Source: Rhynchopus sp. YZ270_cl-10 (taxonomy: Eukaryota). From it: 64,000 nucleotides of DNA. Position 1 is the first letter of the stretch. The number at the start of each line of letters is the position of its first letter. The stretch spans positions 434,001 through 498,000 of the forward strand of contig OZ037838.1 in assembly GCA_964035575.1 (NCBI GenBank), given 5' to 3'. Both the position numbers and the translations under genes were made by a program. This document shows positions 7,701 through 63,967 of the stretch, one piece after another. The notes under the pieces are model-generated. The model had not been told where the DNA came from. It did no database searches and saw nothing but the letters and a program-made list of their open reading frames with translations.

Positions 7701-7819
7701 TGGGTACTGGGTACTGGGTACTGGGTACTGGGTACTGGGTACTGGGTACTGGGTACTGGGTACTGGGTACTGGGTACTGGGTACTGGGTACTGGGTACTG
7801 GGTACTGGGTACTGGGTAC
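7701..7819 (+). repeat. (CTGGGTA)n 7-bp tandem array, ~17 units
   Basis: Read directly from the sequence. Confidence 0.97.
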
Positions 7820-9365: not shown

Positions 9366-10459
9366 CGTGTAATTTTGCAGATTATATGCCCTTTGTGTCA
9401 CTCAATTGTAACCGAGAATGTAAGGCAGTGAGTATTTGATCTGCCCTTTATGTCGCGAAATACTATGTTTGGTGTTTTGACGTCTTCCAAGCAGATGGAT
9501 ATTCCCTCACTTGCACGCAATCTACCGAGGAACCGACTGCCTTTCTCAAAAGCCAGTACATGTCGGGGTGTCGAGGTCCGTGTCAATACAAAGCGGACCA
9601 AGTCGCTCGAGGTTTGAAAACCGCAAGAACTCGTCCCATTTCTTCTTGTACACCTCCTTGCTTCTCATACCCGCTGAGACTTGGTATCCGTAAGTGTCAT
9701 ACATCCTGTCCTTCTTCGTTTTGGCAGTGTTTGAGGGGAGTGATGAAAAAGTTCTTTTTTTTACTGAGTGATTTTTTTAACCAAAAGAAAACCGACGCAG
9801 GAGCTTTTCTGGAACTGTTTTATTCTCCCCACCCCAACAACATCACATTTCAGAAAAACATTGTTTTTTCGTTTTTGTTCACTTTCTTTTCTTCTCCCTC
9901 ACACCTGTTTGCTGTGAATTAAATTTTTTCGTTTCGGCCTGGTCGCAAACGCGAGTTTTCCTGGAAGCGCAGGAAAAATGACTGGGGAGTGTTGGTGGCT
10001 CCGTGACGCCACAGAGCCGGCACACTCGTTGAGTGCCTCACAAAACCTCAAATTTATTCCGCTTTGATTTCATTTATTGTCTTCACGCTTTATCGTTGTT
10101 GTTGGGTTGGGAAATAATATTTCATTCTCCCATACATTCTCGGTTACAATTGAGTGACAAAGGGCACATTATCACCCACCTTTGTGGGAATTCACAAAAT
10201 TACACGAGTTTTATCCCCTTTTTTTACCACATTAACCTCACCTTTCCCGATAACTGCGTTTCTACACCATACATTTCATTCATTAATCACACTCCACATT
10301 TACACTCATCACAGGATCGTGAAATCTGAACTGCATCTGCGCTTGTGATGAGAAGCCTCGCCGCGTCTCCGACATTCAGCAACTCAAAATCCAAAGAGTA
10401 TCACCCGCATCAATCCATTCTGAGTTTGCGGACTAAGATCTGGGGTGGAAGGGGGATGG

Positions 10460-11697
10460 GTACACTTTGTCAGTCACTGCTATTGCCATTTAACCCAGGG
10501 AGCATAGCTAGTGCAAGAAATTCGACTTTGGAAACCTTCCGGAAAGTCTGTCCTCTGCTTGCGGAGGACGAGGCACAAGAAAATATTGCGTTCCCCCAGA
10601 AAACCAGTGCACATTTCACACTCCTTGTGGGTGGTCTTGTTGCCTTTTTGTCACAGTAATTTTGGCCCAGGCATGCTCTTGAAGCATGACAATTTAGTGT
10701 GTATGGGGCAGGGTGTTGTTTTGTTCTGAATTCTCTTTGTTATAACATCTAAGTCAATCGCGGGTGGTGGTTTGTGTAGCGTGAGGCACTCTTTTTAACA
10801 AACTTCCTGCGGCTGCTAAAGCGTTATTTCTTCGGATTTAACAACGTACAGCGTAACATAGTGGATTCGCCTGGTCGACACAACCTTTGATAGATATGGG
10901 ATAACCAACCCCCTTCGACCCCTCGTGGGTTCACTAAACAAGCCCTCGTGGTAGTTAAACGCGATTGACATTTACATTCCTAGAGATGAAAGAACAAGAC
11001 AACACTTCTGTACCCGCGCATCAAAATTGTGGAAAACTTTGCACCCCAAACACCCTCAACAACGCCCGCCAAAAGGCGCCCCTTGTTGCTGGGAGTTGGT
11101 TCTCATGTTTGATACCTGCACAGCGGGCATTCCTCTGAGTCCAACGCATGTTTGGCCTGTCTGCGGCGTTGTACTTCAGGTGCACGAAGACAGGGTCTGG
11201 TGGTAAATTTTGCGTAGTGTCGCATTCCCTCATGTGTGGGTCACTCACACTTGGCGGTCATGTGCCACTGCGTGGGTCTGGGAATTTGGGTACCTGGGTA
11301 CAGGAAATTTGTTGTGGAAGACATCAACCACCATGCATTGAGGAGGGTAAGACAGTGTTCGCAGTTTCTACCTGATAGCATTACAACATTTAACTTCTCC
11401 ACGGGGGTCTTGGGCCGTTCACTCGGTTCTACCTTGACTACCGGAAGATATTCTTGAGGCCTTTCTGGTCTCTAGAATATCCGGTCTTCCCGAACGGAGG
11501 CACACTTTGTGTGTTACTACGACCTGGCAATTTCCAGCAGTAGGTTAAGTAATCTTTCTTGTAAATTGTTGGATCATTATCTCCTCAGTGCATGAATGCC
11601 CCACGTGACTGGACACTTTTGTGTTTGTCATGTGGAGCTGTGGTTGCTCTTTCACGACTTTTTTCCTGTTCCTGGGTACCTGTTCCTGGACCTGGAC
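10460..11697. repeat. ~1.2-kb dispersed repeat (internal TE cassette)
   Basis: Near-identical direct copy at ~50330-51520; more diverged inverted partial copy at ~22190-22940. Confidence 0.9.
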
Positions 11698-11790
11698 CTG
11701 GGTACCTGGGTACCTGGGTACCTGGGTACCTGGGTACCTGGGTACCTGGGTACCTGGGTACCTGGGTACCTGGGCACCTGGGCACCTGGG
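11698..11790 (+). repeat. (CTGGGTAC)n 8-bp tandem array
   Basis: Read directly from the sequence. Confidence 0.95.
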
Positions 11791-12957
11791 TGTGCCTGTC
11801 GGACCCCAGGGTCCGGCAGTCGGACTCAGGGGTCCGACTGTGAGTCCGACAGTCGGACCCCTGAGTCCGACTGTCGGACTCAGGGGGTCCGACTGTCGGA
11901 CCCCCTCGGACTCCGACAAAAGGGTCCGACATTTCCAGGACAGACTGCACCGTGAGTAAAAAAAAAAAAAAAAAAAAAAAAACACAAAAATGGCGCCGCA
12001 GGCAAAAAAATTTTAGGGCACGGTGTAAAAATCTAGCTTTTTACACCACAGAGTCACTCAACGAACCCTTTTTTGCGAGCAAAAAATGAAAAATGGCGCC
12101 GCAGGCAAAAAAAATTTGAGGTACAGCCTGGATGGTGCGGTCAGCAACCCACTTCCCCAAGGTACTCCCGTTCAACCACAGGGGGACTTGGTGATGGTGG
12201 GGGGCCGTTCTGGATTCGGCACCCCTCCCCCCCTTTTTTTTCCCTCCCCCAAAAACTGGTTATTTTGCATGAGCGGTCTCATCCAGACACGTGGTATTTT
12301 TTCTCGGGCTCCTCTGAGCCCCTGTGAACCCCTAAAACGCAGTAGAGACGGCGGGAAAAAAAGTGCGGGAAAAAAATTTATTTTCCCAAATCTGGGGACG
12401 GGGACCGGATTTAGAAACAGGCCTGCCCAAGATTTATTATTTTTTTTTTTTTTTATTTGGCCTGACCGAGTTTTAGTTAAGGCTTGCTGTAAACTCGGTC
12501 AGGCTGACCGAGTTTTACCCCACTATATAATCCCCTGGTCCAAAGTATACATGATGATATGATCGTATTGTTGTTTGGCTAAGTGGTGCAGAAGGAACAG
12601 GATGAGGATGTCAGGCAGTGCAGCTACCTCAGATGCTGTGCGTTTGGCAAGTTGCAGCGCCTGTGCATAACGTCCAGCTCAGGCGAAAAGAAGAGAAAGT
12701 GCAAAAAGAAGTGACTCGAGACACAATGCCTTGCCCTGGCAGTGTACCTTTTGGTGCGTGACCAGAACACCGTGGGTGGACCCGCGGCTGATCCCCCTAG
12801 ACATAGATGGCGTGAAGAGTTTTCTTTGCATTCTTCTTCGCATTCGGGGGGAAAGCTAAAAGGGGTTTCTTGGGGGTGTTTTGAGGGTCTTGGGTTGTTT
12901 TGCTGGGTCTCTGGGGTATATTCATCACCACCCTCCCTCCCGTCCCCTGGTCACACG

Positions 12958-37166: not shown

Positions 37167-37496
37167 TAATAGATACTCCCTACCCTTCAATTGATGTGAT
37201 GCAACTGAAACAAAAGGGTTGTGAGCAGTGTGCAGAGAGAGAGACTGTGGAGCGAAATATACACAAATTTCTGTGGGGGGTAAATTGATGCGAAGAGAAT
37301 GGGACGGAGGTGCCGGGTGGCGGTGATGTCCCCCTAGGTATGGGTAACAGTACATGCCACAACACAGCTGTTGTGCTGACGGTTTTTATAATAAAAACCC
37401 CATATCAGAGTATACAGTGCAGGCAGACGGTTGGGGGGGGGGGTGTGCGGGTGGTTGTGGCATCAAAATTGAGAGGGGGGACGAAGGGATGGGATG

Positions 37497-38114
37497 GGAG
37501 GGGGGGAGGAGAGGGGGGGAGGAGAGGGGGGGAGGAGAGGGGGGGAGGAGAGGGGGGGAGGGGAGGGGGGGAGGAGAGGGGGGGAGGAGAGGGGGGGAGG
37601 AGAGGGGGGGAGGAGAGGGGGGGAGGGGAGGGGGGGAGGAGAGGGGGGGAGGAGAGGGGGGGAGGGGAGGGGGGGAGGAGAGGGGGTGAGGAGAGGGGGG
37701 GAGGAGAGGGGGTGAGGAGAGGGGGGGAGGAGAGGGGGGGAGGAGAGGGGGGGAGGAGAGGGGGGGAGGAGAGGGGGGGAGGAGAGGGGGGGAGGAGAGG
37801 GGGGGAGGGGAGGGGGGGAGGAGAGGGGGGGAGGAGAGGGGGGGAGGAGAGGGGGGGAGGAGAGGGGGGGAGGAGAGGGGGGGAGGGGAGGGGGGGAGGA
37901 GAGGGGGGGAGGAGAGGGGGGGAGGGGAGGGGGGGAGGAGAGGGGGGGAGGAGAGGGGGGGAGGAGAGGGGGGGAGGAGAGGGGGGGAGGAGAGGGGGGG
38001 AGGAGAGGGGGGGAGGAGAGGGGGGGAGGAGAGGGGGGGAGGGGAGGGGGGGAGGAGAGGGGGGGAGGAGAGGGGGGGAGGAGAGGGGGGGAGGAGAGGG
38101 GGGGAGGGGAGGGG
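37497..38114 (+). repeat. Polypurine 13-bp minisatellite (GGAGAGGGGGGGA)n, ~47 units
   Basis: Read directly from the sequence. Confidence 0.95.
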
Positions 38115-44964: not shown

Positions 44965-45102
44965 AAAGACAAGGGTTTTTCTCTTTAATACCCATTTTCC
45001 TAGTACCCATTTTCGTTAATACCCATTTTCAAAAGTGGGTACTAACGAAAATAAAAAGTGGGTATTAAAGAAAAGAAAAAAAGGGTATTATCGAAAATAT
45101 TT

Positions 45103-45210
45103 TGGGTACTGGGTACTGGGTACTGGGTACTGGGTACTGGGTACTGGGTACTGGGTACTGGGTACTGGGTACTGGGTACTGGGTACTGGGTACTGGGTAC
45201 TGGGTACTGG
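45103..45210 (+). repeat. (CTGGGTA)n array, ~15 units, abutting the left MULE TIR
   Basis: Read directly from the sequence. Confidence 0.97.
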
Positions 45211-46006: not shown

Positions 46007-47490
46007 CGCTCCGTCCCAAATTTTTGTCCACACATACGATAAAGTAATAGTTACTCCACTAAATAAATCGAGCAAAAATATGGTGAACTCAGCGGAGCCC
46101 GGTTTTAAAAGTGCCAAAAACGACCTTTTCGTTTTGACGCATTGTGACTACCTCAAATGCACTTTTCAAGGGTAAAAAATTCGGGTTTTCTAAGCACAGC
46201 CAGTGTTCAGTCAAAAATTTTCGCGAAAAAAAAAATAGATTTTTTTTGACTCTAGATGCCGGAACCCAGAAACGTCCATTCGAGCTATTTTTTTTTGGTT
46301 TTGACACACCCTGTGCCCGCCAGGCATAGTCTGTACAAAGTGATTTTTACCTGGATTTTTGCCTGTATTTTCCTTAAGGAAAATACATAGGGAATTATCT
46401 TACGCTCCGTCCCAAATTTTTGTCCACACATACGATAAAGTAATAGTTACTCCACTAAATAAATCGAGCAAAAATATGGTGAACTCAGCGGAGCCCGGTT
46501 TTAAAACTATACTACTGTGTACTATACTATACTGTGTATACTGTGTATACTGTGTATACTGTGTATACTGTGTATACTGTGTATACTGTGTATACTGTGT
46601 ATACTGTGTATACTGTGTATACTGTGTATACTGTGTATACTGTGTATACTGTGTATACTGTGTATACTGTGTATACTGTGTATACTGTGTATACTGTGTA
46701 TACTGTGTATACTGTGTATACTGTGTATACTGTGTATACTGTGTATACTGTGTATACTGTGTATACTGTGTATACTGTGTATACTGTGTATACTGTGTAT
46801 ACTGTGTATACTGTGTATACTGTGTATACTGTGTATACTGTGTATACTGTGTATACTGTGTATACTGTGTATACTGTGTATACTGTGTATACTGTGTATA
46901 CTGTGTATACTGTGTATACTGTGTATACTGTGTATACTGTGTATACTGTGTATACTGTGTATACTGTGTATACTGTGTATACTGTGTATACTGTGTATAC
47001 TGTGTATACTGTGTATACTGTGTATACTGTGTATACTGTGTATACTGTGTATACTGTGTATACTGTGTATACTGTGTATACTGTGTATACTGTGTATACT
47101 GTGTATACTGTGTATACTACCTGTGTGTGACCATACCCCAGATGGTCTGAAGAGTGATCTGACCATATTCTCCAGGTACAATATATACCCGGAGAATCCA
47201 TTGGAGCAAGAATTTTGCACTTTTGAGGACCACAGATTACATACTGCCATTTTTGCGGCCATAATATTTTTGAAAATGGCAAAGACATTTCCTTAAGGAA
47301 TTACAGGGAACCAGGGTCCCTCTCTCTATGGGTTCTGAGGTTTTAGTCACTCAACGAATCTGCTCGATTTTTTTTGACTGTAGATGGGAGGTACCCCAAA
47401 AAATCAATTAAAGCAAGAATTTTACAGTTTTGAATAGTTGTTCTTTATTTAGAAAAGTACCCAGTTTGGACAAAAATTTGGGATTGAGTG
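46007..47490 (+). mobile_element. TTA-TSD TIR element carrying a 9-bp satellite (short copy)
   Basis: TIR C(G/A)CTC..TCCCAAATTTTTGTCCA; TTA on both sides; inverted long copy at 54624-62572. Confidence 0.8.
46528..47118 (+). repeat. (CTGTGTATA)n 9-bp array, ~65 units
   Basis: Read directly from the sequence. Confidence 0.97.
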
Positions 47491-51524: not shown

Positions 51525-52002
51525 CTGGTATCTGGGTATCTGGGTATCTGGGTATCTGGGTATCTGGGTATCTGGGTATCTGGGTATCTGGGTATCTGGG
51601 TATCTGGGTATCTGGGTATCTGGGTATCTGGGTATCTGGGTATCTGGGTATCTGGGTATCTGGGTATCTGGGTATCTGGGTATCTGGGTATCTGGGTATC
51701 TGGGTATCTGGGTATCTGGGTATCTGGGTATCTGGGTATCTGGGTATCTGGGTATCTGGGTATCTGGGTATCTGGGTATCTGGGTATCTGGGTATCTGGG
51801 TATCTGGGTATCTGGGTATCTGGGTATCTGGGTATCTGGGTATCTGGGTATCTGGGTATCTGGGTATCTGGGTATCTGGGTATCTGGGTATCTGGGTATC
51901 TGGGTATCTGGGTATCTGGGTATCTGGGTATCTGGGTATCTGGGTATCTGGGTATCTGGGTATCTGGGTATCTGGGTATCTGGGTATCTGGGTATCTGGG
52001 TA
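51525..52002 (+). repeat. (CTGGGTAT)n 8-bp array, ~59 units, abutting the right MULE TIR
   Basis: Read directly from the sequence. Confidence 0.97.
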
Positions 52003-52874: not shown

Positions 52875-54011
52875 TCACTCACTGTTGTGTGGATACAGAT
52901 GTCTGGTGAAAATGGAGGAGCCGTCGCCAAACACAACCACACATGAACATGGGGATATCGCAAACGATGAACTGCTTGCATTCTTAATCACACGCACACA
53001 GGACATGTTTGCCACATCATACTGGTGAAGGTCGAAGTCCCAACAAAAATCAGACATCATGTTCGAGATATTGACCACAAGGTACTTCCCACACGGGGTG
53101 AACTGCATGCTCTCAATATCCCCACCTACATCAACGCTGCGAAGAGCCACACCACTCCAATCATAGAGGTGCACGGTGTTTTCCTCCCCCTCCACAGCAA
53201 AGACAGAGGCAGAACGTGAAAGCGCCACTTGGCATTGCCCCTCTGCAGGCACACATGCCACAGCTTCACCTGTGTTCACATCCCACAGACGAGCGTTGCC
53301 ATCGTTGTCGGACTCGGAATCGGAGGAGGTGATCACCCACCCACCACAGTCCGACACGGCCGCTCCCTCACAGCCTTTGTGCGAGAGAGAGCGAAGCAAC
53401 GTCAGGTCTTCGTCATACACAGAGACGCCAATGTCGCCTTCAAACGAGAAAACAACACCGCCACACGCAAACACTGCGGAGGAGGGTCCGTCGACTTTGC
53501 GGAGCACCTCCCCACCCGGAAGCGCAACCTCGTGCATGCCTTCCCTGCACGCCAGGTAGCAGCGTGTCTTGCACCGTGAGATGGCAGGTAGACTGTACAC
53601 CCCATTGTCTACTTTGAACTTGAAGGCAGGGCTGAAGGTTTCTGTATCGAGGCCGGTGACATAGCCTGCCCTCTGTGTAAAGAGACAGAGTGCTCCACAA
53701 GGAGACAGCAATACGTGAACTATATTCGCTTGATACTTTAACTCTGGCATCTCTAGACTGTACTCAGCAGGACACTTGATGTCAGCAAAGCGGCGGGCAA
53801 GCACAACCTGCACCCCTGCATCAAACGCAGTGTCCTGCAGACGGCACGTCCCCTCCAGCACCTGCGTGCCGATGCGCATCTCGACAGACGCAGGCGAGAC
53901 AGCAAGCGCCGTGCACGCAACCTCCTTTGCCGCTGCAACGTCCGCCTCGCACGGCACCTCCACTGTCGCAGTCACGCCTGACTCTTCCAGCACAAAGGTC
54001 ACATCCATCAT
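52875..54011 (-). CDS. UBL-propeller copy 12 (378 aa)
   Basis: Intact ORF. Confidence 0.85.
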   Translation of the reverse strand: MMDVTFVLEESGVTATVEVPCEADVAAAKEVACTALAVSPASVEMRIGTQVLEGTCRLQDTAFDAGVQVVLARRFADIKCPAEYSLEMPELKYQANIVHVLLSPCGALCLFTQRAGYVTGLDTETFSPAFKFKVDNGVYSLPAISRCKTRCYLACREGMHEVALPGGEVLRKVDGPSSAVFACGGVVFSFEGDIGVSVYDEDLTLLRSLSHKGCEGAAVSDCGGWVITSSDSESDNDGNARLWDVNTGEAVACVPAEGQCQVALSRSASVFAVEGEENTVHLYDWSGVALRSVDVGGDIESMQFTPCGKYLVVNISNMMSDFCWDFDLHQYDVANMSCVRVIKNASSSSFAISPCSCVVVFGDGSSIFTRHLYPHNSE

Positions 54012-54995
54012 ATTGTTCAGGGCTCTGTTGTGTTTGATGTGATGGTTGGTGGTGTCACTTCGCAACGACAAATAAGAAGGTTGGTGGGTTAAATACGTGT
54101 TTCAACAAACTCTGATAAAGCAAGCAATTTGAAGATACCCTGCGGCAAACACACAGGAGTGAGGTGTGTGAGGTGGGCGACCTGTGGCAGGTAAACAAGA
54201 GAAAAGCAGCAACAGGGCCGAAAGGGGGGTTTCTTGGGGGTGTTTTTTTTTATTGTCCTTTTGTCAAAATCTCTTGTTTTTCTCTTTGTCTATTTTTCCT
54301 GCATTTTTTATTCTCTTCTTTGTACTTTCTTTTGTTTTGGTTGTTGTTAGATAAGCTCAATCGCCTATCGAGTTCTGTGAATAGCACGGAACTCCTTTCC
54401 AGGTGTATCCATGGAAAGACAGTATCATATGTGATACCGTCGCCGGAGGCCACGAGAAGGAGCTTTGCAGGGGCTTTCGCGCGGGGGGGCGGGCGGGCGG
54501 TCAAAAGTGCAGACGGTTTTCACAAAGGGTATTTCAATACCACCAAAAGTGCTGTGTGCTTTTCCTGAAGTACGGACGAGGATGGATGCGATCAATAAAC
54601 AACATCCAACAAACAACGAATAACACTCAATCCCAAATTTTTGTCCATACTGGGTACTTTTCTAAATAAAGAACAACTATTCAAAACTGTAAAATTCTTG
54701 CTTTAATTGATTTTTTGGGGTACCTCCCATCTACAGTCAAAAAAAATCGAGCAGATTCGTTGAGTGACTAAAACCTCAGAACCCATAGAGAGAGGGACCC
54801 TGGTTCCCTGTAATTCCTTAAGGAAATGTCTTTGCCATTTTCAAAAATATTATGGCCGCAAAAATGGCAGTATGTAATCTGTGGTCCTCAAAAGTGCAAA
54901 ATTCTTGCTCCAATGGATTCTCCGGGTATATATTGTACCTGGAGAATATGGTCAGATCACTCTTCAGACCATCTGGGGTATGGTCACACACAGGT

Positions 54996-55393
54996 AGTAT
55001 ACACAGTATACACAGTATACACAGTATACACAGTATACACAGTATACACAGTATACACAGTATACACAGTATACACAGTATACACAGTATACACAGTATA
55101 CACAGTATACACAGTATACACAGTATACACAGTATACACAGTATACACAGTATACACAGTATACACAGTATACACAGTATACACAGTATACACAGTATAC
55201 ACAGTATACACAGTATACACAGTATACACAGTATACACAGTATACACAGTATACACAGTATACACAGTATACACAGTATACACAGTATACACAGTATACA
55301 CAGTATACACAGTATACACAGTATACACAGTATACACAGTATACACAGTATACACAGTATACACAGTATACACAGTATACACAGTATACACAG
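54996..55393 (+). repeat. (TATACACAG)n 9-bp array, ~44 units
   Basis: Read directly from the sequence. Confidence 0.97.
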
Positions 55394-55402
55394 GGGATTG
55401 GG

Positions 55403-55828
55403 ACACAGTACACAGTACACAGTACACAGTACACAGTACACAGTACACAGTACACAGTACACAGTACACAGTACACAGTACACAGTACACAGTACACAGT
55501 ACACAGTACACAGTACACAGTACACAGTACACAGTACACAGTACACAGTACACAGTACACAGTACACAGTACACAGTACACAGTACACAGTACACAGTAC
55601 ACAGTACACAGTACACAGTACACAGTACACAGTACACAGTACACAGTACACAGTACACAGTACACAGTACACAGTACACAGTACACAGTACACAGTACAC
55701 AGTACACAGTACACAGTACACAGTACACAGTACACAGTACACAGTACACAGTACACAGTACACAGTACACAGTACACAGTACACAGTACACAGTACACAG
55801 TACACAGTACACAGTACACAGTACACAG
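55403..55828 (+). repeat. (TACACAG)n 7-bp array, ~61 units, left flank of the retrotransposon
   Basis: Read directly from the sequence. Confidence 0.97.
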
Positions 55829-55910
55829 GAATAGCTTTAGCCTACTCAAAAATGTTCCTTTATTTTTTCTTTTAATCATATACTTGCAAAAAGACGTTGG
55901 GGTAAATCGG

Positions 55911-57573
55911 CTAGGCCGAGCTAGTCGAATCCGCCCCGACGCCAGTAAAGAACAACCGCACCGCACGTTGGACCTCAAACATGAGGTTGGGAGAGGAGAG
56001 GGAGGAAGGGGGAACACGAGAGGGTTTGTCAGCAGGGTTGAGCTTGGTACTGATCCACTGTAATGAAATTGTACACCACAAGTGCTCCAAACGCGCAAGA
56101 GCTTGCACCACCGCGTCATTCAGAATCTTGGATGCCGTACAAATTTTCTTCCGGGCCACACCCACCACAGAAGTGTTGTCAACCCAGATATCCACCTTAC
56201 CACCGGCCGCGGAGTCGGGAAGGGCGGCTATAGTGTTACGCAACGCAAGAGCTTCCAGCACATTAATGTGTAGCTCAGACTCCTGGGAGTCCCAACTAGC
56301 ACCTACAATAGTCATTTCGTTGCTACGGCGGTCCACAATGACACCGCCCCAACCCTTCAGAGAAGCATCAATAAAAACAGCAAGGGAAGAATGGGGGGAG
56401 GGGGGCTTAAAAACACGCGGCATACACACAGCGGAGCGCCAACTGGCTAACTCCTTACGCACCGAAGCAGGGATAACAATAGAGTCGCTGGGCAGACGTC
56501 TGCCCGCATTGAGAGCGTTCGAAATACGCCTCAAAAACTTCACCGTAAACCAAAACTTTCCCGGAAAGACCCCCGCAATGGCGGTGGCGTGCAGCAGTCT
56601 GCCCGCCAGGGACTCCAAAGAACTCGCAGATGCAACACTTAACTCAAGGGAAAAAATTTTGTCCAACAGTTTGGGAGAGGGGGTCACTGAACTGGACGTA
56701 TGCTTAAAATCAACACCAATAAACACATATGACTCACTAGCCGTGACAGAGTCCTCCGGCTTCCACGTAATCCCACAGCTGCTGGCGCGAGAGTCCATCC
56801 GCTTCGTTGCAGCAACTACGTCGTCACGCGACCCACACAAGCGCACTCCATCGATCCACGTATGCACGGTCACTCCCTGCGCGACGTGCTTCTCTTGGAC
56901 ATATGCGGGGTCGCCTCCGATCACTGCTGTGATGGTGTGCATGAGCTCTGGGGCGCAGGAGTGACCCATCGGTAGTCTCGTCAGCTCCCACCAAACACCA
57001 TTGTCGTCCGTGTAGCGGAAGTAGCGGCGAGACTCAGTTGGGATTTCGACCTGGAAAAACCCGCATCGCAGGTCGCGAACACTACCACACTCCTTCTCAA
57101 CCGCAGACAAGTACCTCGACACATGACCCAGAGGCACCTGAGCTTCATAGCCGGCAGCATCCAAGACGTCATTGGCCTCACGAGTCCAGAGGATGAATCG
57201 TTGGCGGAGACCTGTGGGCTTCTCTTCCACAACAGTGAAGGGGATGTTGCAGCATACTCCGGGTCCGTCTGCACGCACAGCTATGCCTGTATCCTGGAGT
57301 ACAGCGGCGTGTTCTGCACTCAGACGAGAAGGATGTGCAGAAGCCTCTCCTGACAGCTCCGTGGGGTAGAAAGCTGCCTGCCAAACCTCGTTGAACCTGT
57401 CCAGGATGGCAGGACGCATCATGCCTTTGACTCTGCTCAATACCAAGGGGGACACGTTCACAGCATGCAGGGGGGAGGCCCGTTCTTCGTCCGTGCAGGG
57501 GAGGCGGGTGTGTTGGGACCGCTTGGTGATGCGGTGTTGCTTGCGGGCGAACTTGTCCACCATCACAGCCATT
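55911..57573 (-). CDS. Reverse transcriptase + RNase H (C-terminal part of the 918-aa open frame 55911-58667)
   Basis: RT motifs RQRFILW, DLRCGFFQV, RLPMGH, WIDG, FIGVDF; DIRS-type RNase H motifs FIDASLKGWG, HINVLE, VDNTS, NPADKPSR. Confidence 0.9.
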
Positions 57574-58390
57574 TCGTCACGTCCTGCGTGCCGATTGCTT
57601 TCGCCAGAGCGACTGGGTCCCCTGCGTACCTGATGGTGGTGGGCGACAGCGCAACCTCCACCTTGTGCTTCGCCAGCACGGAAATGAGGGAGGGGTTCAC
57701 GGGCTTTTTCTCCGCCAGCAACGACAGGAGATGGGTCACTGCCCCTCTCTTGATGCTGTGCCCCGAGAATGAGGTCATCCCTGGCGTGTGGTGCCACTTC
57801 TCCGTCAGCGCCTCGGTGGTGGTCTCCGTGAGGTAGCGGAAGGGCTTCAGCCGTCCGTAGAGGGACGCAATTTTCTCCGTGAGCGCGCCTGTCACCACTA
57901 CCAACTTCGACGGCGTGAAGGGGTCCCCCCGGCGCCCCTTCGGTAGGGTGTGCCAATCCACTATCACCTCTGTGGGCGTCACCTTCACAAACTGCTCTGA
58001 TCCCAACTTCTGCACTTCGTCCCAACGGCTGGCCGTTTTCCAAGCTAGCATTGCGCAGAGGCACAGGTCGTTCTGCTGGTGCTCTGCCCACTGGAGGAGG
58101 GTTCTGCGAGGAATCGGGGTGGCTTGGCTTGTGGGAATTGCCGCCCCTGCGGCCCGCAGCGCTGCTGCAAAGCTGAGCAGCGGTTGGTTGCCCAGGCCGA
58201 TGTGGGTGAAGGTGCCTGATAGGGCCTTGGCGTAGGTGAGCTGCCCTTGCTTTGACACTTGAGTGGCAAGGACGAACAACACCGCTGTGTCGGCTGTCAT
58301 CGGCAGCTGGTGCAGGCCCGTCTGCGAACCTGGACCACAGGTATTTGCGTTGTTGCGACGTGCGCTTGGCCCACATGTCCTCCACCACGC
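57563..58390 (-). CDS. Tyrosine recombinase catalytic domain (N-terminus probably supplied from another frame)
   Basis: Catalytic R (TASRWDE), K (LPKG), HSIKR, LAKH and TTIRY all present. Confidence 0.88.
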   Translation of the reverse strand, partial: AWWRTCGPSARRNNANTCGPGSQTGLHQLPMTADTAVLFVLATQVSKQGQLTYAKALSGTFTHIGLGNQPLLSFAAALRAAGAAIPTSQATPIPRRTLLQWAEHQQNDLCLCAMLAWKTASRWDEVQKLGSEQFVKVTPTEVIVDWHTLPKGRRGDPFTPSKLVVVTGALTEKIASLYGRLKPFRYLTETTTEALTEKWHHTPGMTSFSGHSIKRGAVTHLLSLLAEKKPVNPSLISVLAKHKVEVALSPTTIRYAGDPVALAKAIGTQDVTKWL

Positions 58391-58748
58391 CTAGCAGCCA
58401 CTCGGTCGCTTGCTTCGGGTTGACCTCTGTCTCCTTCACTCGAGATATGGGACGCACCCGCCCGGAGGTGGCTACATGCGTCAGTACGGCCTCTCCAAAA
58501 AGAGATGGGGGGGTAATACCGGGATGGGGGTATCTGTGTGGTGTGGTATGTGTGTTGGGGGGGGGGCTGCGCGGCGGCATTGCTGCTGGGGGCTGCAGTG
58601 ACCCTTGACTTGGCGGGGAGGCGGGCGGGCACAGCTGCATCGGAGGTGGACACCTTCGTTTGTACACGCGCGTTGGTGGGGCGGTTGGGACAATGGGAAT
58701 AACTTGCTGGGGATGTACAGGGGGGGCGGGCCGAGAAGAGGGGGGGAG

Positions 58749-60329
58749 TCACTGTTTCCCCTTCCCGGCCTTCCCGTTTCCCGGTGGGCCGGTCTTCTGT
58801 CCATGCGCTGCCGCACCGCCTTTGCCTCCCTTGTGTGATTTTGGAGGAGGGCGCGTCTGCACATACCGAGCCACTTCATGTCCCGGAGTCGACTGTGCGG
58901 TGGCACGGGTGATGTCCTTGCGAGGGACACGCTCTGACGCGAAAGCGTATTGTATGTGTAACTCCCGAAGAAGCATGTTGCCGAGGACGCGGTGGGGGGT
59001 GCCCTTCCACGACGGCGTCCACTCCGCAGCCAGTATCCACATACGCATCCACTGAAACGTCAACTGCAGGGCCGCCCCCCCCGGTCCATGCTTCAATCCA
59101 GACACAAAGTACTGGTTGAGCTCCAAGATGAGGCCCGCCGAGTCGTTGCGGATACGGTCCGCCCACTCCTCGACCGTCTCCGCCACCACTGGGTCTTTGA
59201 CCCACATGTCGAGCTCGTCTGTAGGTTGTGGGTTGGTGCGTGGTGGTAGCGGTCCGTTCTCAGCCACAGCATCGTGCCAGAGCCCGTCGTCCGCCACGTC
59301 CGTCTTTACCCGTGTGTAGGTGGGGGCCGTGTGTGTGTGTGTGTGTGATGAGGACTGCGACACCTTCAGTCGGTCCACCTCGGCTTGCAGCTCCCTCATC
59401 TGCACCTCCATCGAACTGTTGATGCCGCTCTGCAGGCGGGCATCTTCCTCCTGCTGCCGGTTCGCCTGGCGGAGGCGGGCAATCTCCGCGTCGCGCTGCG
59501 CAAGTGCGGCTTCTGCGGAACTCCGGATCGAGCTCGCCTCCTTCTCCGCCGCTTCTGCCTGGTGCCCCATCTTCTGGCGGGCCTGCTCTGTCTGATGCAG
59601 AGACAGCGCCACAATGCGCGTGTAGCGCCATCCGGCCACAGGCAACGCCACCAACTCATCACCTCCCTCATGGGGCACACAGCCCTCTGCGACGTTGTTG
59701 TAGCAACTGCTGCGCACAAGACCAAACACCTTATTCCCCAGGCCAACCAGCTTGCCTGCGTGGTGGAGGGTCTCCTTCCCTCCAGGGGGGTACCCGGAGA
59801 TCACCACCTCCTGCCCAAGGAGCACCTGCGCCTGCTCACCCAGCATCCATTCTTTCATCTGCTGGGGTGCGGGCACGTCGCCTTGACCGGCGGAGGCATG
59901 GGGTGTGCCCTTCCGCGCCTCCGCAAAAGCAAACTGACTCTTGGACCTGCAAACGGGCACAGGTTCCTCATCCGCCTCGTCAGAAGAAGAGCGAACCCTC
60001 AGGGCGTGGATGGCTCCCACCATCTTCATCAGATTCCAGTCCGGTCGCACATCGGCTTCGCAGAACTCACGCAGGTACACCGTCAACACATTCTCCGCGA
60101 CAGTGTCCCCCGTCCACGCTGCCACCACCGCCTCAAAGGTGCCACTGAGCACGCGGTACGGGTACGAAAACCGTTCCTTGAGGATGGCGGCGTGTTTCGG
60201 CGGGAAGCCAAGAGCGTCGGCGGACCCCTCGCCAGTTTGGGGGTTCCAGAAGAACCGCGCTCCTTCCTCTTCGGACTCAAACCGAGTACGCAGCTTCGCC
60301 AGTTCTTCGGGTAGCTCGCGGAGTGCCAT
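58749..60329 (-). CDS. gag-like ORF1 of the YR retrotransposon (526 aa)
   Basis: First ORF of the element, ATG in AAAAATG context, central coiled coil, basic Gly/Lys-rich C-terminus; assigned by position. Confidence 0.75.
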   Translation of the reverse strand: MALRELPEELAKLRTRFESEEEGARFFWNPQTGEGSADALGFPPKHAAILKERFSYPYRVLSGTFEAVVAAWTGDTVAENVLTVYLREFCEADVRPDWNLMKMVGAIHALRVRSSSDEADEEPVPVCRSKSQFAFAEARKGTPHASAGQGDVPAPQQMKEWMLGEQAQVLLGQEVVISGYPPGGKETLHHAGKLVGLGNKVFGLVRSSCYNNVAEGCVPHEGGDELVALPVAGWRYTRIVALSLHQTEQARQKMGHQAEAAEKEASSIRSSAEAALAQRDAEIARLRQANRQQEEDARLQSGINSSMEVQMRELQAEVDRLKVSQSSSHTHTHTAPTYTRVKTDVADDGLWHDAVAENGPLPPRTNPQPTDELDMWVKDPVVAETVEEWADRIRNDSAGLILELNQYFVSGLKHGPGGAALQLTFQWMRMWILAAEWTPSWKGTPHRVLGNMLLRELHIQYAFASERVPRKDITRATAQSTPGHEVARYVQTRPPPKSHKGGKGGAAAHGQKTGPPGNGKAGKGKQ

Positions 60330-60520
60330 TTTTAAATAAAAAATACAAAAGCTTTTACGACACAAAAAGCTGAAAGGGAAAACCACCCGAACCTAATTCA
60401 GTGATGGTACGTGGTTGGCGAGGAGGTTTCCCGTTGAACAACAACCCCAAAAAGCAAGGGGGGTTTTTGGGGGGTTACACGTTTTAGTTTCGGCTTTGCT
60501 ATTCCCTCGGTAAACCCCAA

Positions 60521-60744
60521 TACACAGTACACAGTACACAGTACACAGTACACAGTACACAGTACACAGTACACAGTACACAGTACACAGTACACAGTAC
60601 ACAGTACACAGTACACAGTACACAGTACACAGTACACAGTACACAGTACACAGTACACAGTACACAGTACACAGTACACAGTACACAGTACACAGTACAC
60701 AGTACACAGTACACAGTACACAGTACACAGTACACAGTACACAG
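60521..60744 (+). repeat. (TACACAG)32 array, right flank of the retrotransposon
   Basis: Read directly from the sequence. Confidence 0.97.
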
Positions 60745-61104
60745 CACTGTACAAGGCAAATGACCAAAATAGCTGATGTTTTGGCCGAATGCCACCCTAT
60801 CAGGAATATTTTCATGTATTCACACAATTTTTTTCTGGCCTCAATACCCCCAAACTACACGATTTTCGGTTCCGGCAAATTTTTGGAGTACCAACTATCG
60901 CGAAAAATGTCGATTTCTTGGGTGTCGTCCGCACATCTCTTTAGTAAAGACCAAGGCGTTGTAATTCATGTGTAATGGGGTGAAATGGGATGAAAGTGTG
61001 TGTAGGTGGGTGTTAGTGTGGTACCGCCGGGACACCCCATAAGGGGGGGTCATTTTTTAACGGCCCTAAGCGGTTTTTTGGTGGGCCACACAGAGACACA
61101 CGGT

Positions 61105-61800
61105 GGCCCATACGGACCTTCAGGGTACACGACGACTAAAGTAACGGGTGTTATGTGGTAATATAACATGTACTACATGTAAGTTACATGTGGTACAGGT
61201 GGCGAAATCAGGTGGTGGTACAATGGTTTTGGGGGTGGTTCTAGGCAGCGTTCGGCGGTGATTTCTGGTAAGACATAAAAAATCCTCAAAAATCGTCGTG
61301 AAATTTATGGGAGTTCTCGTGGGTTATTTACACATCGACCCACATGGAACATGATCACATGTAAGTTACATGTAATTTACGTGTAACGGTTTTTCACATG
61401 TAACATTACATGTGAAAAACACATGTAACTTACTTCACCGCCGTGTGCTCCCCAAACCCGGAGTACACCGCGCGGACCCTCACCTGTGACACATGTCACT
61501 TTACGTGTAAAATGACATGCCGTTTACATGTAAAAAAAGTCACATGTAAATCACAATGTCATGACGTTTACTTCACCGTCGTGTATTCGGGGTGCCCCCC
61601 AGAGGGTCCGTTGCACCACAACCGACTATGAGCAATGACAAGGGGGTATGACTAGTACACATGACAAGACTAAATAATGACAAGACCGTCACATGACAAG
61701 GCCTAACGCCACTCATTTCATACAGGGGTCTTGTCGTGAGTTAGTCTTGTCATGTAACTGCTCATGCACCTTGTCATATGACTAGTCACAGGTGGTAACT
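61105..61800. repeat. Region of short palindromes and hairpins (ACATGTAA, ATGACAAG/CTTGTCAT); probable degenerate MITEs
   Basis: Multiple ACATGT palindromes; imperfect inverted repeats 61110-61146/61566-61612 and 61660-61690/61727-61755; no TSD resolved. Confidence 0.5.
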
Positions 61801-62785
61801 AGTACGTTGTAGTCCATGGGCCATCATTCACACTCACGGTTTTCGGCAATAAAAGGGCCACCCCATTTGTACCTTGAGCTTGTTCTCGATCACAATAAAT
61901 CTATCTGTATAGCCAGAACAAGACCCCCCAGGCGGGGTCTGGGGGGCGGAGCCCCCCAGCGAAAATTTTTGACTTAACACTGGCTGTGCTTAGAAAACCC
62001 GAATTTTTTACCCTTGAAAAGTGCATTTGAGGAAGTCACAATGCGTCAAAACGAAAAGGTCGTTTTTGGCACTTTTAAAACCGGGCTCCGCTGAGTTCAC
62101 CATATTTTTGCTCGATTTATTTAGTGGAGTAACTATTACTTTATCGTATGTGTGGACAAAAATTTGGGACGGAGCGTAAGATAATTCCCTATGTATTTTC
62201 CTTAAGGAAAATACAGGCAAAAATCCAGGTAAAAATCACTTTGTACAGACTATGCCTGGCGGGCACAGGGTGTGTCAAAACCAAAAAAAAATTGCTCGAA
62301 TGGACGTTTCTGGGTTCCGGCATCTAGAGTCAAAAAAAATCTATTTTTTTTTTCGCGAAAATTTTTGACTTAACACTGGCTGTGCTTAGAAAACCCGAAT
62401 TTTTTACCCTTGAAAAGTGCATTTGAGGAAGTCACAATGCGTCAAAACGAAAAGGTCGTTTTTGGCACTTTTAAAACCGGGCTCCGCTGAGTTCACCATA
62501 TTTTTGCTCGATTTATTTAGTGGAGTAACTATTACTTTATCGTATGTGTGGACAAAAATTTGGGACGGAGCGTAAATAAAGAAGGGGGGGTATATCATTT
62601 TCAAAAAAGCGCGTTGCGTTCCCACTATCGTTTCCGCTGCGCTAGCGTTCCCACTCCATTCGGTTTCCTCTTACTTAGAGGGTCTTGGGTTTTTTTGCTG
62701 GTACCATGGGTTACATTCATCACCACTCCCCTTCCCCTCCACTGACACATCACTCAACAGAGGACGGGCCTCCCCTGGTCACACA

Positions 62786-63967
62786 TCACTCACTGTTGTG
62801 TGGGTGCAGATGCTGTGTCACAATGACGCCGTCTGATTGCGTAACCACAACAACACGTGAACACGGCGATATCGTAAATGCCCCCCCATTCTCGGTTTGC
62901 GACAGAACACGCACACAGGACATGGTCGCCACATCATACTGGTGCACGTATGACTTGTAATACTCGTAATCGGGGTAAATGCTGCTGCAATCGGTGTCCT
63001 CATCATCCGTATACCATATAAATTCCCCAACCTCTACCCCCACCACAAGGTACTTCCCACACGGGGTGAACTGCATGCCCCAGACCCCACCCACATCAAC
63101 ACCGCGAAGAGCCGCACCACTCCAATCATAGAGGTGCACGGTGCTATAGTCCACCACAGCAAAGACAGAGGCAGACCGTGAAAGCGCCACTTCACACGAC
63201 CTACCCGCAGGCACACATGCCACAGCTTCACCTGTGTTCACATCCCACAGACGTGCGCTGTCCTCACTGGAGGTGGTCACCCACCCACCACAGTCCGACA
63301 GTGCCAGGTCCTTGCACTCTTCATGCGAGAGAGAGCGGAGCAACGTCAGGTCTTCGTCATACACAGAGACGCCGTCTTTGCCCTTCGAGACAACAACACA
63401 GCCACACGCAAACACTGAGTGCAAGTCAACAACACCGCCACGTCCGTATGAAACCGAGGGGCCGTCGACTTTGCGGACCACCTCCCCACCCGGAAGCGCA
63501 ACCTCGAGAAGGCAATCCTTGCATGCCAGGTAGCAGCGTGTCTTGCACTGCGAGATGGCAGGTGGACCGAACACTTCATTGTCCACTTTGAACGAGAAGA
63601 CAGTTTCAAAGGTTTCTGTGTCGAAACCGCCAACGTGCCCACTCTTGTTACTGTGGATGCAGAGCGTTCCACAACGTGACAGCGTCAACGACATCGCTTG
63701 CGGCTCTGTAGTGTACTCAGTAGGACACTTGATGTCGGCCAAGCGAGGACAGGCAAGCACAACCTGCACCCCTGCATCAAACGCAGTGTCCTGCAGACGG
63801 CACGTCCCCTCCAGCACCTGCGTGCCGATGCGCATCTCGACAGACGCAGGCGAGACAGCAAGCGCCCTGCACGCAACCTCCTTTGCCGCTGCAACGTCCC
63901 CCTCGCACGGCACCTCCACTGTCGCAGTCATGCCTGACTCTTCCAGCACAAAGGTCACGTCCATCAT
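62786..63967 (-). CDS. UBL-propeller copy 13 (393 aa)
   Basis: Intact ORF, with a 10-aa internal duplication-like insertion (YGRGGVVDLH). Confidence 0.85.
   Translation of the reverse strand: MMDVTFVLEESGMTATVEVPCEGDVAAAKEVACRALAVSPASVEMRIGTQVLEGTCRLQDTAFDAGVQVVLACPRLADIKCPTEYTTEPQAMSLTLSRCGTLCIHSNKSGHVGGFDTETFETVFSFKVDNEVFGPPAISQCKTRCYLACKDCLLEVALPGGEVVRKVDGPSVSYGRGGVVDLHSVFACGCVVVSKGKDGVSVYDEDLTLLRSLSHEECKDLALSDCGGWVTTSSEDSARLWDVNTGEAVACVPAGRSCEVALSRSASVFAVVDYSTVHLYDWSGAALRGVDVGGVWGMQFTPCGKYLVVGVEVGEFIWYTDDEDTDCSSIYPDYEYYKSYVHQYDVATMSCVRVLSQTENGGAFTISPCSRVVVVTQSDGVIVTQHLHPHNSE

What the first reader, a model, noticed from the sequence alone, without database searches (positions are those of the whole stretch)
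55403..60744. TATE-like YR retrotransposon inserted in phase into a non-telomeric (TACACAG)n satellite
Seen: the element sits between ..TACACAG| and |TACACAG.., with ~61 and 32 units on either side and repeat phase preserved. The satellite itself lies inside a DNA transposon. Established: TATE elements of Leishmania insert site-specifically in TTAGGG telomeric repeats. Inference: a relative retargeted to a 7-bp satellite carried by another mobile element, i.e. a sequence-specific integrase using a self-spreading landing pad.
Basis: partly seen in the sequence, partly recalled or inferred. Interest (0 to 1): 0.75.

Follow-up and report, generated by a model that had tools for sequence, protein, structure and literature searches.

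The report
Satellite-targeting VIPER-like recombinase retrotransposon
A mobile element of a likely diplonemid protist sits at one exact G^TA position inside short internal DNA repeats, and it likely inserts there with its own tyrosine recombinase, without target duplication, as its relative TATE does in telomere repeats.

Summary
Observation confirmed. A 4,692-bp element (55829-60520, minus strand; gag-like, tyrosine recombinase, RT/RNase H) interrupts a perfect (TACACAG)n array at CAG^TAC, with no duplication or loss. Contigs of public runs refine the story. The family's two ends also join directly (3 of 4 runs), and a 26-nt spacer links them the other way round. This fits the split direct repeats A1-ORFs-B1-A2-x-B2 of VIPER/TATE. 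The window copy is a shortened A-ORFs-B form with a frameshifted recombinase. The main outer flank in the runs is not the 7-mer but the related 9-mer (TATACACAG)n, in either orientation, again at G^TA (3 of 4 runs). These flanks plus the end-to-end junction account for about 83-105% of end depth, which leaves little room for random flanks. The arrays lie in a non-coding TIR element with TAA on both sides, present twice in the window. The RT groups with Diplonema elements; TATE versus VIPER is unresolved, and the layout is closer to VIPER. Verdict: a new target variant of VIPER-like YR retrotransposons. Recombinase specificity and the 'self-spreading landing pad' remain inferred; no genome was available to list copies or telomeres.

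The parts
55829..60520 (-). VIPER-like YR retrotransposon, shortened A-ORFs-B copy (4,692 bp, 59% GC)
   Evidence: Junctions; ends confirmed by the contig joint 60520->55829; GC
60340..60520 (-). Split repeat A (181 bp), 5' end of the element
   Evidence: Contigs branch at 60340 (gag or 26-nt spacer) and at 60520 (B or satellite); depth about twice the body
55829..55934 (-). Split repeat B (106 bp), 3' end; overlaps the last codons of RT/RH
   Evidence: Joint 55934->60340 with 26 letters between; X4 record 9 is A and B joined in one 287-bp contig
58749..60329 (-). ORF1, gag-like by position (526 aa, no CCHC box); its TGA is followed in frame by a Pro-rich linker
   Evidence: Pfam gives only a weak coiled-coil hit, E 0.064
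57563..58487 (-). Tyrosine recombinase with R-K-HxxR-H-Y; frameshifted near 58321-58323 in this copy
   Evidence: Alignment A2; model pLDDT 95 matches Cre, Xer and Tn1549 Int; sister protein P0129 maps in two frames; run contigs carry 5 more bases there
55911..57572 (-). RT/RNase H core (553 aa); its frame overlaps the YR gene (822 aa in other copies)
   Evidence: Weak Pfam RT_RNaseH and RVT_1 hits below cut-off; about 50% identical to Diplonema papillatum element proteins; cluster members
55403..55828 (+). Left target array (TACACAG)60, ending at CAG^
60521..60744 (+). Right target array (TACACAG)32, starting at ^TAC
54998..55393 (+). (TATACACAG)44, the 9-mer satellite that is the main flank of other copies; unoccupied here
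   Evidence: flanks
54624..62572 (.). Non-coding TIR element that holds both arrays (27-bp imperfect TIRs, TAA at 54621-54623 and 62573-62575)
46007..47490 (-). Second, shorter copy of the TIR element with (TATACACAG)65; no 7-mer array and no retrotransposon
   Evidence: 99% identical over 374 and 500 bp; TTA on both sides

Best explanation
This is a shortened, recombinase-frameshifted copy of a VIPER-like tyrosine-recombinase retrotransposon whose family sits at G^TA inside the related satellites (TATACACAG)n and (TACACAG)n, likely because its recombinase inserts a predicted circular DNA copy at that site. Shown: the genes; the ends A and B; a direct B|A junction and an A-x-B link in run contigs; satellite flanks at G^TA in the palindromic cores GTATAC and GTAC; no duplication and no shared bases. 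Inferred from the contig graph and from VIPER/TATE/Ngaro: full copies read A1-ORFs-B1-A2-x-B2; reverse transcription makes a circle whose new B|A junction is the donor site; the recombinase binds the imperfect inverted repeat around that junction and exchanges strands with the target; insertion at B|A junctions already in the genome would give tandem clusters. This copy likely lost A2-x-B2 (313 bp) by B1/B2 recombination and was mutated after insertion. The arrays are likely multiplied inside non-coding TIR elements, which would supply harmless landing sites.
For: Window junctions. Joint 60520->55829 in 3 of 4 runs (depth X1 1431, X5 1228, X4 4.4) and joint 55934->60340 with 26 nt in 2 of 4, with the same spacer as a loose end in X5. 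A = 181 bp and spacer = 26 bp, against 173-185 and about 30 bp in T. cruzi VIPER/SIRE (PMC6681497). At the A end the branches were B junction / 9-mer: X1 1431/334 (reverse orientation), X2 803/912, X5 1228/1059, against trunk depths 1592, 1906 and 2415. The near 1:1 split in X2 and X5 is what single split-repeat copies predict. The B end is also preceded by the 9-mer in X5. YR catalytic residues and fold. Six near-identical RT proteins on up to 9 contigs, 0-7 differences from P0001 over the aligned part: a young family.
Against: The window's own 7-mer junction was in 0 of 4 runs; its private indels were also absent from run contigs, so contigs drop this copy's variants and the blank is ambiguous. 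Contigs drop rare variants, so single-copy random flanks would be hidden; only depth accounting (about 83-105%) limits them. Short pieces of depth 92-316 in 3 of 4 runs had flanks that could not be read. A sister family sharing the last 34 bp is followed by a non-satellite, TGG-rich sequence in X3 (target or its own B end: unknown). Short contigs cannot order A, B and the spacer, nor tell circles from tandem copies. X1-X3 are one study, and one run may be the window's source. No recombination assay exists.
Confidence: 0.72

Rival explanations
1. The recombinase has only a loose G^TA or palindrome preference; copies pile up in these satellites because the arrays are abundant and insertions elsewhere are purged.
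For: Flanks share little: TATAC or TAC on one side, G on the other; both orientations and two unit lengths are used. The CACAG arrays hold 408 of 1,926 GTA/TAC sites of the window.
Against: The other 1,518 of 1,926 sites lie elsewhere, partly in equally harmless arrays such as (TACCCAG)n, and none of those appeared as a readable flank among the 19 pieces laid in 4 runs.
Confidence: 0.12
2. The 9-mer or 7-mer is this organism's telomeric repeat or derives from it, so the element is an ordinary telomere-targeting TATE that also enters interstitial tracts.
For: TATE inserts at a fixed position in telomere hexamers and forms tandem clusters (PMC6681497, PMC2696322). The repeats are very abundant in the runs (summed depth at the array bins far above the body). 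Contig ends could not be examined.
Against: All four arrays in the window are internal and lie inside a TIR element; both orientations are used; the window holds several other perfect 7-9-mers of similar make-up; no TTAGGG or TTTAGGG array is in the window.
Confidence: 0.08
3. The family targets the 9-mer only, and the window's arrangement (7-mer flanks, missing A2-x-B2, three indels) is an assembly error.
For: 7-mer junction in 0 of 4 runs; three indels not shared with the majority contigs; perfect arrays are hard to assemble.
Against: Both junctions fall at the G^TA position seen in the 9-mer; loss of one repeat pair by recombination has a parallel in Ngaro solo AB repeats (PMC8547959); the locus lies on a 457-kb contig.
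Confidence: 0.06
4. The arrays belong to the element's own ends or are written by its RT.
For: Arrays touch both ends.
Against: The B|A junction has no repeat; flanks differ among copies in unit and orientation; 9-mer arrays occur without the element (46532-47116, 54998-55393).
Confidence: 0.02

Closest known systems
VIPER and SIRE of Trypanosoma cruzi (VIPER-like group, order DIRS)
   Same: gag-like, YR, overlapping RT/RH; split repeats A1...B1-A2-B2 with a short spacer; A 173-185 bp, spacer about 30 bp, YR about 338 aa (PMC6681497). RT 32-35% identical to T. cruzi, T. theileri and L. pyrrhocoris proteins.
   Different: The RT falls in a separate clade with Diplonema elements (SH-aLRT 98, quick tree). 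No fixed satellite target is given for VIPER in the passages I read.
TATE of Leishmania braziliensis
   Same: Same gene set and split repeats; fixed position inside a short tandem repeat; tandem clusters (PMC6681497, PMC2696322). The cut is written GGG^TTA there and falls at G^TA here (relative orientation unknown).
   Different: Target is an internal 9-mer/7-mer, used in both orientations; no TT duplication; repeats (181/106 against 381/294 bp) and YR frame (about 310 against 982 aligned aa) are much shorter.
Diplonema papillatum TATE-annotated elements
   Same: Closest named proteins, about 50-58% identity; one orthogroup annotated 'TATE DNA transposon' has 281 members (PMC10161547 supplement file 5).
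   Different: Ends and targets are not described in the passages seen; the paper defers rigorous element annotation.
Ngaro of Cafeteria burkhardae
   Same: YR retrotransposon with A1-ORFs-B1A2B2, solo AB repeats, and a preference for another mobile element (EMALE virophages) (PMC8547959).
   Different: Different gene order (YR last); regional preference linked to ORF1, not a fixed nucleotide.
CryptonV and telomere-inserting nimavirus YRs
   Same: YR-driven insertion into microsatellites or telomere motifs (PMC8869645, PMC10871703).
   Different: DNA elements without RT; the nimavirus YRs are reported as not closely related to DIRS YRs.

Membership tests
YR retrotransposons (order DIRS) | RT/RH plus tyrosine recombinase in place of a DDE integrase | tested here: met
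YR retrotransposons (order DIRS) | No target-site duplication | tested here: met
YR retrotransposons (order DIRS) | Circular intermediate | tested here: inconclusive
   B|A junction is abundant but is also expected inside split-repeat copies and tandem arrays
VIPER-like group (VIPER + TATE) | Order gag-like, YR, RT/RH with YR overlapping RT/RH | tested here: met
VIPER-like group (VIPER + TATE) | Split direct repeats A1...B1-A2-B2 | tested here: met
   Met for the family by both joints (order inferred, not phased); the window copy itself has one A and one B only
VIPER-like group (VIPER + TATE) | RT/RH related to trypanosomatid VIPER/TATE | tested here: met
   E 1e-52 to 1e-68 against T. cruzi, T. 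theileri and L. pyrrhocoris proteins, against 1e-7 to 1e-15 for three distant RTs
TATE (strict) | RT/RH in the TATE clade | tested here: inconclusive
   No protein named TATE among the hits; 20 of 150 representatives looked up, 1 named
TATE (strict) | Insertion in telomeric GGG^TTA with TT duplication | tested here: not met
   Flanks are 7-mer and 9-mer satellites, no duplication
VIPER (strict) | RT/RH in the VIPER clade | tested here: inconclusive
   Sits outside the clade of the T. cruzi protein (VIPER by exclusion, as T. cruzi lacks TATE in PMC6681497); deeper forks are open
DIRS-like (ITR + internal complementary region) | Long inverted terminal repeats | tested here: not met
   Only a 7-bp arm (11 bp with extension), offset by 16 nt at one end
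Non-autonomous TIR DNA transposon (host of the arrays) | TIRs, constant-length target duplication, dispersed copies | tested here: met
   2 of 2 copies in the window have TIRs and a TAA/TTA pair with different outer flanks; superfamily not assigned, no empty site found
Telomeric repeat | Present at chromosome ends | not testable with these tools
   No genome held

The most novel reading that the evidence does not exclude
VIPER-like recombinases are homology-free, sequence-specific integrases: the B|A junction folds into a hairpin with the break at the edge of a 7-bp arm, like an integron cassette site, and is joined to the palindromic core G^TA(TA)C of a satellite that a TIR element spreads through the genome. 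Sister families would each own a different repeat, TATE's telomere targeting being one case of a general rule.
Probability: 0.18. Interest if true: 0.8.

Novelty: new variant of a known kind. Interest (0 to 1): 0.52.

Why it matters
How YR retrotransposons choose and join their targets has mostly been inferred from sequence (recalled, not from a call). This family is young and homogeneous, and it gives an exact donor junction, an exact target and two orientations with no shared bases, so the integration step can be tested directly with short substrates. It extends fixed-position targeting in the VIPER-like group from Leishmania telomeres to internal satellites of a free-living lineage. A small eukaryotic recombinase that places about 5 kb at a defined short repeat would also interest genome engineers.

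Tried and rejected
No whole genome was held, so copies and contig ends could not be listed. Related loci: none in metagenome contigs or viral contigs, so conservation of the junction hairpin and the targets of relatives were not tested. No RNA holder listed. The protein atlas held neither query. A PDB sequence search with the YR profile gave nothing under E 0.1. The search for longer RT relatives gave two Diplonema proteins and four weak hits, no named TATE. The careful ML tree did not finish; the quick tree has 12 of 36 inner branches open and long-branch warnings; 11 of 202 proteins were dropped as too short before the first tree, and 39 of the remaining 191 were picked by hand for the second. 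Internal repeats in the window copy: nothing above chance level, so the split repeats were found only through run contigs. Junction fold: z -2.7 (DNA) and -4.0 (RNA) for a 43-nt stretch chosen after seeing the repeat, fading to -0.9 and -1.5 at 120 nt; a lead only. No empty site of the TIR element in paralogous intergenic DNA. Earlier findings of this scan: none. PMC13598402 had no passage on telomeres; PMC15765 is not held. Rejected: arrays as element termini; the 945-aa frame as a real protein (it arises from this copy's frameshift).
Full report
Observation. The window has 60 perfect TACACAG units at 55409-55828 and 32 at 60521-60744. Between them lies 4,692 bp whose removal restores an unbroken array at CAG^TAC. 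The element's first and last bases match neither side of the target, so there is no duplication and no microhomology. A related 9-mer array, (TATACACAG)44, lies at 54998-55393, 9 bp from the start of the 7-mer array.

Coding content. On the minus strand: a 526-aa gag-like ORF (60329-58749), a tyrosine recombinase frame ending at 57563, and an overlapping RT/RNase H frame ending at 55911. Pfam hits are weak and below cut-off. The recombinase keeps R92, K121, H181-x-x-R185 region, H212 and Y225 at 90-100% across 28 aligned relatives. Its model (pLDDT 95) matches Cre, Xer and Tn1549 integrase (best E 1.4e-4). The closest named RT and YR proteins are from Diplonema papillatum at about 50-58% identity, so the host is likely a diplonemid. 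Six RT proteins of the same 90% cluster lie on up to 9 contigs and differ from P0001 at 0-7 residues over the aligned part: a young, multi-copy family.

This copy is damaged. Three cluster members begin in a frame that the window breaks after 17 residues, and a 75%-identical sister recombinase maps to two frames that meet at 58321-58323. Run contigs carry 5 more bases there at full depth in 3 of 4 runs; two more indels lie at 58531 and 58557.

Ends. No long repeat exists inside the window copy. Contigs of four runs laid on it show a direct joint from 60520 back to 55829 in 3 of 4 runs (depth 1431, 1228 and 4.4, against body depths of about 650-770, 550-1500 and 2-3). They also show a joint from 55934 to 60340 through 26 other bases in 2 of 4. 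This defines A = 60340-60520 and B = 55829-55934 and fits A1-ORFs-B1-A2-x-B2, the split repeats of VIPER and TATE; T. cruzi has A of 173-185 bp and a spacer of about 30 bp (PMC6681497). The order is inferred, as short contigs cannot phase it. The window copy has A and B once each. Tables were cut (31 loose ends and 1,820 pieces not shown).

Targets. laid four runs on the A end; all 19 pieces were listed. Branches were the B junction in 4 of 4 runs and the 9-mer in 3 of 4: TATACACAG in X2 and X5, the reverse TATACTGTG in X1. Depths (B / satellite / trunk) were 1431/334/1592, 803/912/1906 and 1228/1059/2415. Counting a sister family and unread short pieces, branches make up about 83-105% of the trunk, so random flanks are at most a minority. 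X5 also shows the 9-mer before the B end. Every readable satellite junction falls after the G of the palindrome GTATAC or GTAC. The excess of B junctions in X1 (81%) suggests tandem clusters or circles. X1-X3 belong to one study, and any run may be the window's source.

Host of the arrays. Both arrays lie in 54624-62572, bounded by 27-bp imperfect TIRs and TAA on each side. A second copy at 46007-47490 is 99% identical at both ends, has TTA on each side and different outer flanks, and holds (TATACACAG)65 but no 7-mer array. A non-autonomous TIR element that carries the 9-mer is thus supported by 2 copies; its role as the main spreader is untested.

Phylogeny. In a quick ML tree of 39 hand-picked RT/RH domains the window protein falls in a clade with D. 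papillatum and Rhynchopus-cluster proteins (SH-aLRT 98), apart from the T. cruzi, T. theileri and L. pyrrhocoris clade (FastTree on 191 of 202 proteins agrees). No authenticated TATE was recovered. The element is VIPER-like; by sizes it is nearer VIPER, by behaviour nearer TATE.

Mechanism. Most likely the RT makes a circle from the split repeats, and the recombinase exchanges the new B|A junction with G^TA in the satellite (inferred from the DIRS model, recalled in part). The junction is an imperfect inverted repeat with 7-bp arms, a 16-nt spacer and the break at one arm's edge; it folds better than shuffles only in short, post hoc windows. With no shared bases, a Cre-like matched spacer is excluded for these junctions; a Tn1549-like or integron-like tolerance of mismatch is the open question (comparison recalled).

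Literature seen. PMC6681497: parts 1-3 of 9, passages, and a term search of 12 of 13 supplements. PMC8547959: passages and section 11. PMC10161547: passages and a supplement term search (7 files held as text). PMC12278014: passages and a blank supplement search. PMC2696322, PMC4338418, PMC6390901, PMC10871703, PMC8869645, PMC12440569, PMC12618653: passages. PMC13598402: a blank term search. Ten searches listed no paper on satellite targeting by a VIPER-like element or on diplonemid element ends; Repbase and subscription papers were not searchable. Repeat targeting by YRs is known from TATE, CryptonV and nimaviruses, and nesting in another mobile element from Cafeteria Ngaro. TATE-related repeats at internal positions are reported in L. 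panamensis and L. braziliensis (PMC4338418).

Verdict. Real, and a new target variant of a known kind; interest 0.52.

Noticed in passing
window 3420-63967: Tandem family of genes with a ubiquitin-like-looking N-terminus (label recalled) and a WD40-like propeller, ten or more paralogs on the minus strand, e.g. 52878-54011 and 62789-63967.
   Followed up: partly
window 7707-7818, 11697-11768, 45109-45206, 51531-52002: Perfect arrays of related units (TACCCAG, TACCCAGG, TACCCAGA) sit at swap points between repeat families: the left side of the 51531 array matches 10352-11791, its right side matches 45061-45123 in reverse. The arrays may act as recombination hubs.
   Followed up: partly
window 37471-38114: (GAGAGGGGGGGAG)50 array with TA-CAGTG shortly before it and CACTG-TA shortly after it, like the ends of a Tc1/mariner-type miniature element (resemblance recalled).
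   Followed up: no
window 58740-58757: The gag-like stop (CAG TGA CTC) is followed in frame by a Pro-rich linker that runs towards the recombinase, and two small indels of this copy lie in that linker; readthrough or an internal start is possible.
   Followed up: partly
window RT frame, about 56850-56870: The YxDD motif reads WIDG here and in P0002, and WIDN or similar in most relatives; PMC12440569 notes changed RT residues in TATE and VIPER.
   Followed up: no
run contigs at window 60487-60521: A sister family shares the last 34 bp of A (2 mismatches) in 4 of 4 runs and is followed by a TGG-rich stretch in X3; it may have another target.
   Followed up: no
window 46508-46531: The second TIR copy joins its 9-mer array to the right part through scrambled units that include one 7-mer, and lacks 55394-62072 of the first copy.
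   Followed up: partly
window 61357-61433, 61635-61777: Long imperfect palindromes in the middle of the TIR element, not found elsewhere in the window.
   Followed up: no
protein library: The RT profile finds 1,290 clusters at E 1e-30 or better; of 20 looked up, 19 were unnamed environmental sequences, so VIPER-like elements are far more diverse than described. Some named members are annotated as 'TOR kinase 1'.
   Followed up: partly
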